Below, piece by piece: positions 22,001 to 27,548 of a stretch of 64,000 nt of DNA (positions are counted from its first letter, which is position 1; every line of letters starts with the position of its first letter). Where the stretch lies: NCBI GenBank assembly GCA_043821645.1, contig JBDRCO010000063.1, positions 1-64,000 of the forward strand, given 5' to 3'. A program made the position numbers. Source of the DNA: Pseudomonadota bacterium. Its GTDB lineage: Bacteria > Myxococcota > JACRCW01 > JAFGSX01.

Positions 22001-25000
22001 GCCCCAGGCCATGGCCAGGTGCTCGACCTCGACCTGCTCGGGTGTGGCGTGGAAGAACAAGCTGACGTCGCCGAGATTGAAATCCTCGACCTTGGGGCTG
22101 GTCACCATGAGCAGACCATCGGCCTGGATGTCGACGGCAGCAGGCTTGCTGCGTACCCGCGTCTCGAGTTCGACGAGTCCGTCGAGAGGAAGCTGCGGCA
22201 CAACGATACGCTGCACGGCCTGCAGCGGCAGGTCCAGGTGCAGCTCGACGTCGGCGGCAGGCAGGTGATCCACACCGCGCTGTGAGAAATCCAGCTGCCC
22301 GGACAGCTCCGCGCGCGTGTCCTCGACACCCACCACGAAGCGGTTGAAATCCACCCTGCCGATCTCGAGCAGGCTGTCGCCGTGCTGCTCGGCCTCGCCA
22401 GAGAACGCGCTCAGAACCAGATGATAGGCTCCGTGATCATAGCTGCCACCGCCTACCGAGAAGGCCACGCCATGCCGCGTGAGGTCGCGCCCGGCGATGT
22501 GCACGTCGATCTCGCGCAGCGACAGCAGGCCGCTGTCCTCGATGGCAATGTCGACCCGCCCGTCGCGGATACGCAGGTCGTTGACGCTGATCTTGAGCAG
22601 GGCCTGGCCTGTCCTGCTCAAGCGAGGCAGACCGGCAATGCGACCGCCCACCACACTGAGGCGAGATGTCGGGGTATCCAGCTCCACGCGCTCGAGGCGC
22701 AGGCGCCCCGTCAAAAGCTGCATGGGTGTCAGCTCTATCTTCAGGCGCCGTGCCGCAAAGATCTCGCTCTGATCCTGAGCCCGCACCGAGATACCAGAGA
22801 GGTCGATGCTCGCACGCAGCAGATCAGCCTCGACGCTGTCGACCGTGAGCTGCAACCCGGCCTCGTCGTGGAGGCGCTGTGCAAGGATCCCGATCAGGGT
22901 GCGCATGCCACCGGGACTCTGTACCCACCACACCACAGCCACCCCGAGGGCGAGGTTGAGCAGCAGCAGCAGTGCGATCACGGTGCGCTTGCGTTTCATT
23001 CGGTTGACTCACTGCGTCACGAAACGCAGCTTCCTCTGTGGGACGTGAACACATCCCCTTTGTTCATTATTCATGGTGCCAAAGCCCAGCGCCCACCGCA
23101 AGAAAGCGGGGGGTCGAAGGAAAAAGCCCTGCACAGGCATGACACTCGCACCTCCCCCACAGCCGGTGATACAAGTGGCGGCCTGGTAACCGCGGGATTT
23201 CACTCATGGGCGTGACACGCGATCTGGCCCGGCTCAACACCATCGCGATGGCCCTGGCCAGACATGGCTTCGGCCACCACCTGGCCAGGCTGCGCCAGTT
23301 CAGGGGACTGTCGCGCAACACCGAGCTTGATCCAGCGCTGGTCGAGGCGGACGCCGCCGTGCGCTTTGCCAAGATGCTCGAGGAGCTGGGCCCCACCTTC
23401 GTCAAGCTGGGCCAGATCCTGTCGACGCGCCCCGACCTGTTGCCACCGTCGTTCATTGCCGAACTCTGCCACCTGCAGGACAAGGTTCCCCCGCTGGCCT
23501 TCGACGAGATCCGCAATGCCATCGCCGATGGCCTGCCCGGGAGCGTGGAGGCGCACTTCAGCTTCATCAGCGAGCAACCGCTGGCCTCGGCGTCGATTGC
23601 CCAGGTGCACGCCGCCAAGCTGCTGGATGGGACCCCGGTGGTGGTCAAGGTACAGCGGCCGGGCATCGGCGCGCAGATGGCCACGGACTCGGACCTGATA
23701 CGCAAGATGGCCCGGGTGTTCGAGATGCTGTTCGAGGAGGTGGGCAGTTACGGCCCGGTCGCGGTGGTGGAGGAGTGGCAAAAAGGTCTCGCCCTCGAAC
23801 TCGATTTCGACAATGAAGCCCGTGCGGTGCATGCCTTCTACGAGGTCAACAAGGGCCGCGAGGGCGTTCGCATTCCCATGCTGTATGCCGAGCACAGCTC
23901 GCGTACCGTGCTCACCCTGGAGCGCCTGGCGGGCCGCCGCCTGGCGGACATCGTACTCCCCGCTGAACGTTGCACCGTGGCCACGGCGCTCATCGACTGC
24001 GCCTTCAGGCAGGTATTCGAGGACGGCCTGTTTCATGCGGATCCGCACCCCGGCAACTTCCTGATCCTGGACAGCGGCGCCATCGGGATCCTCGACTTCG
24101 GCCTGGTCGGACACATCACCAAGGACAGCCAGGACAGCCTGATCGCGCTGGCCCTGGCCATCGCCCTCGGTGACGCCGACACCGTGGCGCGCCTGGTCTA
24201 CCGCATCGGCAACCCGGAGGAGCGCATTCCCCTTGGTGCGTTCCGCTCCGAGATGAGGTTGTTGCTCGATCGCTATGTAGGCTTGCGCCTCGAGCAGGTG
24301 CGCACCCGTGTCCTGGCGCGCGAGCTGCTCGACCTGATGGCACGCTACAAGCTTCGGGTGCCTCGAGAGTTCGCGCTCCTGGCCAAGGCTACGGTCACCC
24401 TGGAAGGTGTGACCCGAGAACTCAACCCGGACCTCGACGTCAAGTCCACCTTGCTGCCCTACACCGAGCAGCTGCTCATGGAGCGCTTCGATCCTCGACA
24501 GATGCAGGGCGGTGGGCTCAAGCTCATGCTCCAGCTCGCGGGCTTCCTGCAGGATCTGCCGCTTCAGCTGTCCCAGGCCCTGCTCGACATGGAGACCGGC
24601 AAGACCACCATCCGCGTCGAGGGCCGCGGCATGGAGTCGCTCGCATCCAGCGTGCGCTCCCTGGGCATCGCCGTCCTCGCGGCGGCAGTGGCAGCCGCCT
24701 CCATCATCGGCGGTGTCATCGCGGCACCACACGTGCCCGGCTACATCCTGGGCTGGCCCACCAGCGTCGTCGGCGGCATCACCGTGGCCACCCTCGTCGC
24801 GCTGCCGGCCACCCTGTTCGTGCTGGCCCACGGCCGCCTCCCCCGCTTGCGCCTGCGGCGTGGGAGATCGCGCTTGCCGCCCCCGGGACACTGACGGTCC
24901 GGCCATGCAGCTCGACCCCGCACAGCAGAAGATCCTCGACGGAGAACAGGGCCAGGCCGCGCGCATGGCCATGGAGATCCTGGTGGCACTCGGGCGTATC

Positions 25001-27548
25001 TACGGCGCGCTTCGACTGGCACCGGTGCGCAGCGTGCAGATCGCCGGAGTGTCGTACCACAACCTTGGCGACGCGGGACTGGAGTACCTGGCGGACCTGG
25101 CGGTCGACGGCAAGGTCCAGGTCCCGACCACCCTCAATCCCGCAGGCATGGACCTCGAGCGCTGGACCGAGATGGGTATCAGCGAGGACTTCGCTGCCAA
25201 GCAGCGCCGCGTCATCGAGGCCTACACGCGCATGGGTGTGAGCCTGAGTTGCACCTGTACACCCTACCTTTTGGGGAACCGTCCGCGCCGCGGCGAGACC
25301 CTCGCCTGGAGCGAATCGTCCGCCGTCACCTTTGCCAACAGCGTGCTCGGCGCCAGGACCAACCGCGAGGGAGGTCCCTCGGCCCTGGCCAGTGCACTCA
25401 CCGGCGTCACGGCCATCTACGGCCTGCACCTTGACAACGAGCGGCGTCCGACCCTCGCCGTGCACGCGACCTGCCCACTGGCGGGAAGCGACGACTGGGG
25501 CCTGCTGGGAGCCGTGATCGGCAAGACCCGACCCGGTGCCCTTCCCTGGATCCGCTCGCGCACCCGCCCCGACGACAGCGAGCTTCGGGCGTTGAGTGCA
25601 GCGTTGCCCACCTTTGGAGGCAAGCCCATGTTTCACCTTCAGGGTGTGACCCCCGAAGCCGAGCAGCACCGCCCTCCCGACGACGTGCTGACCGTCGACA
25701 GAGCGATGATCGAAAGGACCCGCGCCGAACTCGAGAGCGGGGATGACACCATCGATCTGGTGGCCCTGGGATGTCCCCACGCGTCCTTCGAGGAACTCGA
25801 GACGATCGCGCACCTGCTCGACGGCGGCCGAGCAGTGGTGCCGCTGTGGATCTCGACGGCGCGAGGCACCCTGGAACGCGCCCGCGCCGCAGGCATCGTG
25901 CAGAACATCGAGGCCCTCGGGGGCCACGTGTGGGCCGACACCTGCTTCGCCGTGGCGCCGCTCAAGGGGCGCTTCGCCCGCGTCGCCACCAGCAGCGCCA
26001 AGGGATGCTTCTACGGCAGCGGGCACAACCTGTTCCGCATGCGCCTGGGCTCCCTCGAGCAGTGCATCGCCGCAGCCTGCAGCGGGACCTGGACATGACG
26101 GGCACCCTGCACGGACGCGTGATCAAGCACGGCCAGGCCGGCGGCCGCGCCCTGTGCAGTACCGTGCCGATCTCGTTCTTCGGCGGAGTGGACCCTGATA
26201 CCGGCATCGTGACCGAGAAGGGCCACCCGCTCGAGGGGCAGTGTTGTGCCGGCCGGGTGCTGGTGTTCCCACATGGCAAGGGCTCCACGGTCGGCAGCTA
26301 CGCCCTTTTACGGCTGCAGAAGAACGGCGTGGCTCCCGCGGCCATGATCAACCGCGAGTGCGAGACCATCGTCGCGGTGGGAGCCATCATCGCCGGCATC
26401 CCGTGCGTGGATCAGCTCGACATCGACGCCATCGCGGACGGGGACGCCGTGGATGTCGACGGAGAGCGGGTCACGGTGCGCTGATGGAAATGACCAGATC
26501 CGCTTGCGTCGGATCGTCGGTGGTCCCTGGCCGGCCGTCTCCGCTTCAGCCTTGCTTGCCGCCGGCCACCATCTTGGCCCAGGTGTCCTTGAGCGTGACG
26601 ATGCGATGGAACACGGGGGCACCTGGCTTCGAGTCCTGGGGATCCACGTAGAAGTAGCCCTGGCGCTCGAACTGCACGCGATCACCCGCCGGGATACTGG
26701 CGAGGCTCTGCTCGGCGCGCGCTTGCTCGAGCACGACCAGTGAATCGGGATTGAGGAAGTTCCGGAAGTCCGCGTCCTTGCCTGCGTCAGGCTGCTCCAC
26801 CGTGAACAGGCGATCGTACAGGCGCACCGTCACCGGCAGACTGTGCTGCGCCGACACCCAGTGAATGGTGCCCTTGACCTTGCGCCCGTCGGGAGCGTTT
26901 CCGCCGCGGGTCTCGGGGTCATAGCTGCAGCGCAGCTCGACGACCTGGCCCGCCGCATCCTTGACCACGCTGTGGCAGGTGATGAAGAAGCCCCAGCGCA
27001 GGCGCACCTCGCGCCCCGGCGCCAGACGGAAGAACTTCTTGGGCGGGTCCTCCATGAAGTCGTCGCGCTCGATGTAGATCTCGCGACTGAAGGGCACGCT
27101 GCGCGAACCCATCTTGGGAGGATCGTCGGGATAGAACGGCGCCTCGAGCTGCTCGACCTGGCCCTCGGGCAGGTTCTCGATCACGACCTTGAGCGGCCGC
27201 AGCACGCACATCACACGCCGGACCTGGGTGTTGAGATCGTCGCGGATGGCATTTTCGAGCAGCACCGGGTCCACCCAGCTCTCGCGCTTGGCCACACCGA
27301 TGCGATCGCAGAAGGCACGGATGGCCTCGGGGGTGTAGCCGCGCCGGCGATACCCGGCCAGCGTTGGCATGCGGGGATCGGCCCAGCCGTCGACCTGGCC
27401 CTCGGTGACCAGCTGCAACAGTTTGCGCTTGCTCATCACCGTGTACAGCAGGTTGAGACGAGCGAACTCGTATTGATGCGGCCGGTGCGGCACGGGTAGC
27501 TGATCCAGGAACCAGTCGTACAGCGGCCGGTGGTTCTCGAACTCGAGG

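What a model noticed while it worked through the whole genome (the two positions that open the first line are those of the whole stretch)
24905..26484. Aeropyrum-type archaeal mevalonate pathway in a Myxococcota genome
The genome encodes phosphomevalonate dehydratase (g02457-g02458), anhydromevalonate phosphate decarboxylase (g03137), UbiX and isopentenyl phosphate kinase (g03131-g03132, C72:76324-84391) with HMG-CoA reductase and mevalonate kinase, and no phosphomevalonate kinase or MEP genes were found. Class relatives use the classical route, so this family has switched to the archaeal one.
Evidence so far: Best Swiss-Prot hits are the archaeal enzymes: 48.5%, 60.7%, 42.8%, 35.4%. AcnX in 3 of 151 phylum genomes; IPK over cut-off in the same three of 5 tested. 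G045 holds all five genes as one operon; G001 keeps ipk-ubiX adjacent. No PMK over cut-off here, while G002 and G003 have PMK-like genes beside the decarboxylase. No DXR/IspG/IspH Pfam rows.
(Added by a program. Inside this text positions count along the whole contig: contig position 1 is position 1 of the stretch shown here. "Call 12" and the like, gene names such as g00115 and contig names such as C1 are that model's own, and its searches are not shown. The text may have been shortened before it was handed on; [...] marks where a part breaks off. The agent that wrote the report below was given it as the finding of a first reader that could run no searches.)

Follow-up and report, generated by a model that had tools for sequence, protein, structure and literature searches.

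The report
Archaeal mevalonate route in myxobacterial relatives
An uncultured relative of the myxobacteria carries genes for the energy-saving, oxygen-sensitive archaeal way of making isoprenoid building blocks, shared with a group of related bacteria, and it probably keeps a second enzyme for the same step.

Summary
Observation confirmed. Window 24905-26484 encodes a two-subunit type IIb aconitase X that keeps the phosphomevalonate-dehydratase cysteines and the large-subunit substrate residues. G000 also has one UbiD, UbiX and IPK each, plus HMGR, MVK and IDI-2; PMK, DXR, IspG, IspE and HMG-CoA synthase were not found (95% complete).

'Switched to the archaeal route' is only partly right:
(1) The module belongs to a bacterial clade. 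Nine other MAGs carry it, five as ubiD-acnXL-acnXS-ipk-ubiX and one behind idi-hmgR-mvk. The family probably got it from bacteria, not directly from archaea.
(2) G045 is a separate, Hadarchaeota-related acquisition (AU p 8e-70) and keeps MEP genes.
(3) G000 also has a Chloroflexota-clade MVD-family decarboxylase of mixed signature. Genes for a second route occur in 8 of 11 clade genomes.

The pathway is known in archaea and Chloroflexota, and this scan noted it before in Chloroflexota and Gemmatimonadota. I found no paper on Myxococcota, but could not read Kanno 2024. No activity or expression is shown.

The parts
24905..26098 (+). acnX large subunit, predicted phosphomevalonate dehydratase large subunit (type IIb AcnX), 397 aa
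   Evidence: PF04412 477 bits. Best PDB hit T. kodakarensis 7CNR 310 bits against 219 for type I hydroxyproline dehydratase. C118, C290, C347, E137, K366, Y370 and phosphate-site A47-G48-V49-S50, N53, N78 present; no type I site-C cysteine.
26095..26484 (+). acnX small (swivel) subunit, 129 aa, start overlaps the large-subunit stop (ATGA)
   Evidence: PF01989; NF003046 167 bits over cut-off 163; best PDB hit TK1248. S64-T65-V66 kept; F29 stands where T. kodakarensis has Leu and the hydroxyproline enzyme Trp.
23206..24894 (+). ubiB/ABC1-family kinase gene, 10 bases upstream on the same strand; a neighbour, probably not part of the module
   Evidence: PF03109. Not adjacent to acnX in the same-family genome G029; no UbiB hit in any of the nine bacterial loci L064-L068, L070-L073.

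Best explanation
G000 makes IPP by the archaeal (trans-anhydromevalonate phosphate) lower mevalonate route. HMG-CoA is reduced by class II HMGR and phosphorylated by MVK (C68, inherited with the class). The window's AcnX heterodimer, a predicted [4Fe-4S] enzyme, dehydrates mevalonate 5-phosphate. The C72 UbiD, loaded with prenyl-FMN made by UbiX, decarboxylates the product to isopentenyl phosphate. IPK gives IPP and IDI-2 gives DMAPP. This saves one ATP against the PMK/DMD route of its relatives but is oxygen-sensitive, which fits a genome with cytochrome bd and no aa3 oxidase found. The module derives from a five-gene operon (ubiD-acnXL-acnXS-ipk-ubiX) long resident in related high-GC bacteria and split up in this family. 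A separately acquired Chloroflexota-type decarboxylase (C95) probably offers a second, Fe-S-free way to isopentenyl phosphate through the same IPK. Shown here: genes, residues, gene order, trees and non-detection of PMK/MEP genes. Inferred: every enzyme activity, the direction of transfer, the substrate of the C95 enzyme, and any division of labour by oxygen.
For: Residues. The UbiD shares the HR, EGPFxD and EH motifs with operon-encoded archaeal homologues; IPK has the HGAGSYGH histidine and best hits are IPKs. Co-occurrence: AcnX, IPK and UbiD in G000, G029 and G045; none in G011 or G021, which have DMD-PMK. IPK in 4 of 401 phylum genomes against MVD-family genes in 222 of 301. Operons: 9 of 80 loci are a high-GC bacterial set; 5 have the full five-gene order and L070 reads idi2-hmgR-mvk-ubiD-acnXL-acnXS-ipk. 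G000's unlinked UbiD falls in the same 11-member bacterial clade (100/100) as its AcnX (19 rows, 99/97); its IPK groups with three of these MAGs (95/95). GC3 of the five module genes is 0.82-0.91, inside the genome's 5-95% range of 0.785-0.925. Oxygen sensitivity and ATP saving of the route: PMC10040528 and PMC12547664, passages.
Against: No activity or expression data. In G000 acnX and ubiD/ipk/ubiX are on different contigs. No family model specific for AMPD was hit; UbiD passes only the broad TIGR00148 and its best PDB hits are other UbiD decarboxylases. HMG-CoA synthase was not found, so the upstream supply is unexplained. The C95 decarboxylase could carry all the flux. It matches the diphospho-specific pattern at the six positions of Dellas 2013 Table 4, so with an unassembled PMK it could even be a classical enzyme. 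In 2 of the 9 related loci (L065, L066) no small subunit follows the large one. The trees hold no Chloroflexota AcnX and few archaeal lineages, so the donor is not settled.
Confidence: 0.8

Rival explanations
1. Clean switch: the family uses only the archaeal route, and the C95 decarboxylase is a recent passenger without a role.
For: G029 (82% complete), G301 and G308 show the module with no MVD-family gene and, where searched, no IspG. The C95 gene stands alone among unrelated genes and its relatives are Chloroflexota-labelled, not myxobacterial.
Against: The C95 frame is intact. His-type decarboxylases without PMK recur in G305 and G307 (inside hmgR-decarboxylase-mvk) and G306 (after a Nudix gene that reads like type 1 IDI). 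These MAGs are incomplete or of unknown completeness, so the blanks are weak.
Confidence: 0.3
2. The haloarchaea/Chloroflexi-type route (C95 decarboxylase plus IPK) is the main route, and AcnX/UbiD are a backup or decaying.
For: C95's best PDB hit is 6N0X at 294 bits against 196 for the next DMD. It keeps the His found in 118 of its 119 nearest homologues. The ancestral operon is broken up in this family.
Against: AcnX L, AcnX S, UbiD and UbiX are intact, with key residues kept in both family genomes at 62-72% identity. No MVD-family gene was found in G029.
Confidence: 0.2
3. The classical route persists: C95 is a diphosphomevalonate decarboxylase and PMK lies in the unassembled 5% of the genome, with the archaeal module added on top as in G304.
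For: C95 passes TIGR01240 (242 bits, cut-off 171) and has Lys22 and the other diphospho-type residues. G304 has mvk-dmd-pmk-hmgR as well as the archaeal operon.
Against: C95 is only 42% identical to the class DMD, sits outside the myxobacterial DMD clade and has no kinase neighbour, whereas relatives keep dmd-pmk adjacent. PMK was not found in either family genome.
Confidence: 0.1
4. AcnX and UbiD act on another organic acid (hydroxyproline or an unknown catabolic substrate), and ipk-ubiX only balance prenyl phosphates for the flavin cofactor.
For: Bacterial AcnX subfamilies of other or unknown function exist (PMC10040528 passages), and the genes are unlinked in G000.
Against: The hydroxyproline-specific residues (Asp203, Ile206, Thr72, Trp35, Cys510 of the Agrobacterium enzyme) are all replaced; three carry the same residue as PMDh. 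Orthologues sit directly behind idi2-hmgR-mvk in L070.
Confidence: 0.07
5. Binning artefact: archaeal DNA in a bacterial MAG.
For: G000 is a MAG with 3.95% contamination; named top homologues of the large subunit are mostly Bathyarchaeia.
Against: The 95-kb contig has 66.9% GC like the genome and carries bacterial genes such as DUF507 and glutaminyl-tRNA synthetase. Codon use is typical. The same genes are in G029, with the two genes next to ubiD conserved.
Confidence: 0.02

Closest known systems
Archaeal mevalonate pathway of Aeropyrum pernix and Methanosarcina mazei (PMDh = type IIb AcnX, AMPD = UbiD family with UbiX, IPK); structure T. kodakarensis 7CNR/7CNS
   Same: Same enzyme set; two-subunit AcnX with the three cluster cysteines and the large-subunit substrate residues; IPK histidine; no PMK found.
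   Different: Bacterial host; upper half is the class's own hmgR-mvk; no HMG-CoA synthase found; an extra MVD-family decarboxylase; the proteins form a bacterial clade of their own.
Archaeal mevalonate pathway of Ca. Promineifilum breve, Chloroflexota (Kanno et al. 2024; title seen in reference lists, paper not held)
   Same: The same pathway in a bacterium.
   Different: Different phylum. The relation of the G000 enzymes to the Chloroflexota ones was not tested, because no Chloroflexota AcnX was in hand.
Haloarchaea/Chloroflexi-type route: phosphomevalonate decarboxylase plus IPK (Roseiflexus castenholzii MPD, Dellas 2013; Anaerolinea thermophila enzyme, PDB 6N0X, code-to-organism link recalled)
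   Same: G000's C95 enzyme lies among Anaerolineae/Chloroflexota-labelled homologues, keeps their His, and the genome has IPK but no PMK found.
   Different: It has Lys where 6N0X has Asn, and the diphospho-type residues of Dellas Table 4, so its substrate is uncertain.
Eukaryote-type mevalonate pathway of myxobacteria (Hoshino and Gaucher 2021, PMC8237579, passages)
   Same: Shared hmgR-mvk upper half; present in both other class genomes.
   Different: The DMD-PMK pair of the class was not found in this family.

Membership tests
Type IIb AcnX (phosphomevalonate dehydratase) | Separate large and small subunits in neighbouring genes | tested here: met
Type IIb AcnX (phosphomevalonate dehydratase) | Cysteines at sites A, 1 and B, none at site C; conserved Glu | tested here: met
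   C118, C290, C347, E137; Ala at the site-C position
Type IIb AcnX (phosphomevalonate dehydratase) | Mevalonate-5-phosphate contact residues of 7CNS rather than the hydroxyproline-specific ones | tested here: met
   All large-subunit positions match, as do small-subunit S64, T65, V66; F29 differs from both Leu27 and Trp35 (Tyr in 69 of 70 comparison loci)
Type IIb AcnX (phosphomevalonate dehydratase) | [4Fe-4S] cluster and dehydratase activity | not testable with these tools
   Needs anoxic reconstitution and assay
Archaeal mevalonate pathway | UbiD-family AMPD orthologue plus UbiX | tested here: met
   Single UbiD and UbiX; the UbiD clades with genes directly upstream of acnX and shares their motifs. 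Orthology only; no AMPD-specific model was hit.
Archaeal mevalonate pathway | IPK with the catalytic histidine | tested here: met
   NF040647 175 bits over cut-off 120; best PDB hits are IPKs
Archaeal mevalonate pathway | Upper pathway: thiolase, HMG-CoA synthase, HMGR, MVK | tested here: inconclusive
   Thiolase, HMGR and MVK found; HMG-CoA synthase not found in a 95% complete bin
Archaeal mevalonate pathway | No PMK/DMD or PMD doing the same step | tested here: not met
   PMK not found, but an intact MVD-family gene is on C95. This lowers 'sole route', not 'works like the archaeal route'.
Phosphomevalonate decarboxylase (PMD/MPD), for the C95 gene | Loss of the DMD lysine and presence of the PMD histidine | tested here: inconclusive
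   His196 present, Lys22 also present; 53 of 119 nearest homologues have Lys there. Matching these two sites to PMC11052028's lysine and histidine is my inference, as its Figure S6 is a picture.
Phosphomevalonate decarboxylase (PMD/MPD), for the C95 gene | MPD-type active-site set of Dellas 2013 Table 4, or the haloarchaeal MvaD model | tested here: not met
[quoted passage not shown] | Site-C cysteine and Asp/Ile/Thr/Trp substrate residues; NF051439 cut-off | tested here: not met
   (311 bits against 700 for the large subunit alone)

The most novel reading that the evidence does not exclude
The archaeal lower-mevalonate module has a long-established bacterial branch that moves among low-oxygen relatives of myxobacteria as an add-on beside whatever IPP route the host already has (MEP, classical, or a phosphomevalonate decarboxylase). 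G000 would then run two parallel routes from mevalonate 5-phosphate to isopentenyl phosphate, an ATP-saving Fe-S/prFMN one without oxygen and an ATP-using one under oxygen stress. Both would be fed, without HMG-CoA synthase, by HMG-CoA from leucine breakdown or by scavenged mevalonate.
Probability: 0.3. Interest if true: 0.72.

Novelty: new member of a known kind. Interest (0 to 1): 0.55.

Why it matters
Myxobacteria are the standard example of bacteria with the eukaryote-type mevalonate route and are argued to be donors of eukaryotic isoprenoid and steroid genes (PMC8237579, passages). In the papers I could read, Chloroflexota is the only bacterial phylum named with an archaeal-type route (PMC13001223, PMC6107057, passages). 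Two independent acquisitions in this phylum and a deep bacterial clade in its relatives would show that the route crosses the domain boundary repeatedly and then spreads among bacteria. Genomes holding two routes make a testable case for why the ATP-saving but oxygen-sensitive route is kept. Bacterial PMDh/AMPD sets, including natural single-chain large-small fusions, are also candidates for isoprenoid engineering, where PMDh oxygen sensitivity is the stated limit (PMC12547664, passages).

Tried and rejected
Kanno 2024 and Hoshino and Villanueva 2023 are not held; either may already list Deltaproteobacteria or Myxococcota homologues. Eight paper searches and two supplement searches gave no report of this route in Myxococcota; pages of the PMC11052028 supplement are pictures and could not be read. 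Expression: no RNA holder listed; three same-study RNA runs gave one 32-base piece, so no evidence either way. A link between ubiB and acnX was rejected because it is not conserved. G045 as part of the same event was rejected. G289's AcnX fragment was rejected as type IIb. L092, titled Ca. Sulfotelmatobacter, has 41% GC and a Bathyarchaeia-like gene order and was not counted as bacterial. The carboxyltransferase upstream of hmgR could not be shown to be methylcrotonyl-CoA carboxylase: best PDB hits are propionyl-CoA-carboxylase-like and its orthologues' neighbours were uninformative. G175's IPK-like gene is a long branch in a different gene cluster and has no AcnX match. The first AcnX tree did not finish its careful search; one search repeated it on 48 of the 64 rows after dropping the long G289 row and 15 near-duplicates. 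The Atlas search only returned AcnX clusters. No structure or complex was predicted, since the pair resembles a solved heterodimer.
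Full report
The locus. Window 24905-26098 and 26095-26484 are two overlapping plus-strand genes for the large and small subunits of an aconitase X. The best solved relatives are the Thermococcus kodakarensis chains of 7CNR (310 and 123 bits), ahead of the type I hydroxyproline dehydratase (219 and 68 bits). PMC8184944 (passages) lists the residues that bind mevalonate 5-phosphate in 7CNS, and PMC10040528 (passages) the three cluster cysteines. All large-subunit positions are kept: A47, G48, V49, S50, N53, N78, C118, E137, S138, S139, C290, C347, K366, Y370, with no site-C cysteine. The small subunit keeps S64, T65 and V66; F29 differs from both reference enzymes. The contig is ordinary for this genome in GC, codon use and gene content. 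The upstream ubiB gene is not a conserved neighbour.

The rest of the pathway in G000. C72 carries ipk-ubiX and, 5.4 kb upstream on the same strand, ubiD; each is the only hit of its kind. IPK passes its curated cut-off and has the histidine that PMC3857490 (passages) uses as the IPK signature. hmgR-mvk on C68 is arranged as in the class relatives, and IDI-2 is on C108. Not found in this 94.7% complete bin: PMK and IspE, IspG, DXR, HMG-CoA synthase. IspH was not searched.

Distribution in the phylum. The class holds 4 genomes. G000 and G029 have AcnX, IPK and UbiD; G011 and G021 have none of these over cut-off and carry adjacent DMD and PMK-like genes. Of 301 phylum genomes, 7 matched the large subunit at E<=0.001, of which 3 are full-length type IIb. 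IPK passed its cut-off in 4 of 401, and MVD-family genes were found in 222 of 301. So the module is rare and an MVD-family decarboxylase is the norm in the sample.

A bacterial clade. Eleven have bacterial titles. Nine are 61-74% GC MAGs titled Deltaproteobacteria, Myxococcales, Polyangiaceae or Rickettsiales. Five of the nine read ubiD-acnXL-acnXS-ipk-ubiX; L070 reads idi2-hmgR-mvk-ubiD-acnXL-acnXS-ipk up to its contig end; L073 reads ubiD-acnXL-acnXS-ipk; L065 and L066 show ubiD-acnXL only. The other two are a Planctomycetia locus that groups with an Altiarchaeota one, and L092, which I did not count as bacterial. In the careful large-subunit tree (48 rows), G000, G029, these nine and eight database proteins without organism names form one clade (99/97). 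The UbiD tree gives the same eleven genomes as a clade (100/100) with the same pairs. G000's IPK groups with three of them (95/95), though the IPK tree does not resolve the whole set. This ties G000's unlinked genes to an operon whose L070 form contains the upper pathway, which is the strongest functional evidence here.

Origin. In a quick RpoB tree, G000 and G029 lie with G011, G021 and other phylum members (99, 96), while eight of the nine MAGs form a separate group (89; six of them at 98); G308 had no RpoB match. Host pairs match gene-tree pairs (G302+G303, G306+G309, G305+G307), which suggests long residence. The simplest reading is that this family took the module from that bacterial group and lost DMD-PMK; this is an inference from one marker gene and unrooted gene trees. 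G045's large subunit is 45% identical to G000's, has Hadarchaeota as nearest named archaeal relatives, and lies across a 100/100 branch. Forcing both sets into one clade is rejected (p-AU 8e-70; the groups were named after an earlier tree had been seen). G045 also keeps IspG, IspE-like and DXR genes. The phylum therefore shows at least two acquisitions. No Chloroflexota AcnX was available, so kinship to the published bacterial case is open.

A second route. The C95 gene (27781-28791, minus) is an intact MVD-family protein. Its best PDB hit is 6N0X (294 bits, next DMD 196), which I recall as the Anaerolinea thermophila enzyme; PMC9254496 (passages) calls that structure a PMD whose specificity can be changed by mutation. 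The five homologues among the top 119 that carry an organism name are Anaerolineae or Chloroflexota, and the gene falls outside the myxobacterial DMD clade (quick tree). Its signature is mixed. 6N0X and 6N0Z differ at two aligned sites (Asn/Lys, His/Met), and C95 has Lys and His. At the six positions of Dellas Table 4 it reads like a diphospho enzyme. I put monophosphate or dual activity at roughly 60%, mainly because no PMK was found and His-type decarboxylases without PMK recur in G305, G306 and G307. Across the 11 clade genomes, 8 show genes of another route: His-type decarboxylase (G000, G305, G306, G307), mvk-dmd-pmk-hmgR (G304), or IspG plus IspE-like (G302, G303, G309); none was found in G029, G301 or G308. 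'Added beside' describes the clade better than 'switched'.

Oxygen. PMDh is inactivated by oxidation and the route saves one ATP (PMC12547664, passages). None of the 12 module carriers G000, G029, G045 and G301-G309 has an aa3 oxidase over cut-off; G307 has a 266-bit contig-end fragment that may be one, and G304, G306 and G308 have weak hits. The 2 of 16 genomes over cut-off are G021 and G175, which lack the module. G000, G029 and G045 have cytochrome bd, but so does G021. G000 has genes of the anaerobic benzoyl-CoA pathway, and its one COX1-family hit is a contig-end fragment that I read as quinol NO reductase (label recalled). This fits a low-oxygen life, but the genomes are kin and incomplete, so it is a pattern, not a test.

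The upstream gap. HMG-CoA synthase was found in 2 of 5 genomes (missing in G000, G029 and the classical-route G011) and in 4 of 10. G000 has a crotonase whose top PDB hits include 5JBW/5JBX (recalled as Myxococcus xanthus LiuC) and human methylglutaconyl-CoA hydratase, and no HMGL-like domain, so no HMG-CoA lyase was found. Leucine-derived HMG-CoA is therefore plausible, but the carboxylase step was not identified. Mevalonate uptake or an unassembled synthase remain possible.

Novelty. The pathway is known in archaea and in one bacterial phylum. PMC13001223 (passages and supplement search) and PMC6107057 (passages) name only Chloroflexota; PMC8237579 (passages) treats myxobacteria as having a pathway homologous to the eukaryotic one; PMC11052028 (passages and supplement search) does not mention Myxococcota in readable text. 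Eight searches found no report for this phylum, but Kanno 2024 and Hoshino and Villanueva 2023 were not readable. Earlier notes of this scan report the module in Chloroflexota and Gemmatimonadota and a dual route in a haloarchaeon (unchecked). Verdict: a real new occurrence of a known pathway, made more interesting by the bacterial clade, the repeated acquisition and the probable second route.

Noticed in passing
P0010, P0011, P0013-P0015, P0019, P0032, P0068; L064 8001-9734: Natural single-chain fusions of the AcnX large subunit to the small subunit (large first, 547-587 aa, Pro/Ala-rich linker) inside the bacterial clade. Type I AcnX has the opposite domain order.
   Followed up: partly
G045 C7, L023 4891-17794: One cluster holds HMG-CoA synthase, a cyclase closest to 2,3-oxidosqualene cyclase (746 bits, cut-off 851), a U32-peptidase-family gene, a prenyltransferase, IDI-2-like, an MVK-HMGR fusion and a squalene-synthase-like gene, in a genome with MEP genes, the archaeal module and no heme-copper oxidase found.
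   Followed up: partly
G175 C45, L211 2513-9192: A divergent IPK-like gene beside a 4-HFC-P synthase (MfnB-family) gene, two polyprenyl synthetases, a UbiA prenyltransferase and a HAD hydrolase in a 10-Mb genome that has an MVD-family gene; possibly a prenylated-furan cluster.
   Followed up: partly
G000 whole genome: No HMGL-like domain (PF00682) found at all, so neither HMG-CoA lyase nor isopropylmalate synthase; may point to leucine auxotrophy.
   Followed up: partly
G000 C87:7300-18000 (L195): Anaerobic benzoyl-CoA degradation cluster: oah and had over cut-off, dch-like, glutaryl-CoA-dehydrogenase-like and an activase-domain reductase subunit.
   Followed up: partly
window 40140-45674: Molybdopterin oxidoreductase, 4Fe-4S subunit, two sulfur-transport (PF04143) genes and an NrfD anchor: a thiosulfate/polysulfide-reductase-like operon.
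   Followed up: no
window 45710-53448: Minus-strand run with a 90-aa carrier-like protein, a PLP Cys/Met enzyme, a radical SAM protein, an adenylation enzyme, a hydrolase and an M29 peptidase; possibly a small biosynthetic cluster.
   Followed up: no
G000 C16:13063-14133: COX1-family fragment at a contig end, reading like quinol NO reductase with a transposase-like N-terminal piece; possibly interrupted or chimeric.
   Followed up: no
L126 (Planctomycetia-titled, G310): Another type IIb AcnX in a bacterial-titled MAG, grouping with an Altiarchaeota locus; the genome also has HMGS-IDI2-MVK and IspG. Possibly a further acquisition.
   Followed up: partly
L092; L068 and L071: Probable mislabelled records: a 'Sulfotelmatobacter' contig with Bathyarchaeia-like operon and 41% GC, and two 'Rickettsiales' MAGs of 7-10 Mb and 70% GC that branch near the Polyangiaceae-titled genome in the RpoB tree.
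   Followed up: partly
G000 C3:104434-110061: Carotenoid-like cluster (prenyltransferase, desaturase-like, synthase-like genes, by similarity and reading only): a likely sink for IPP.
   Followed up: no
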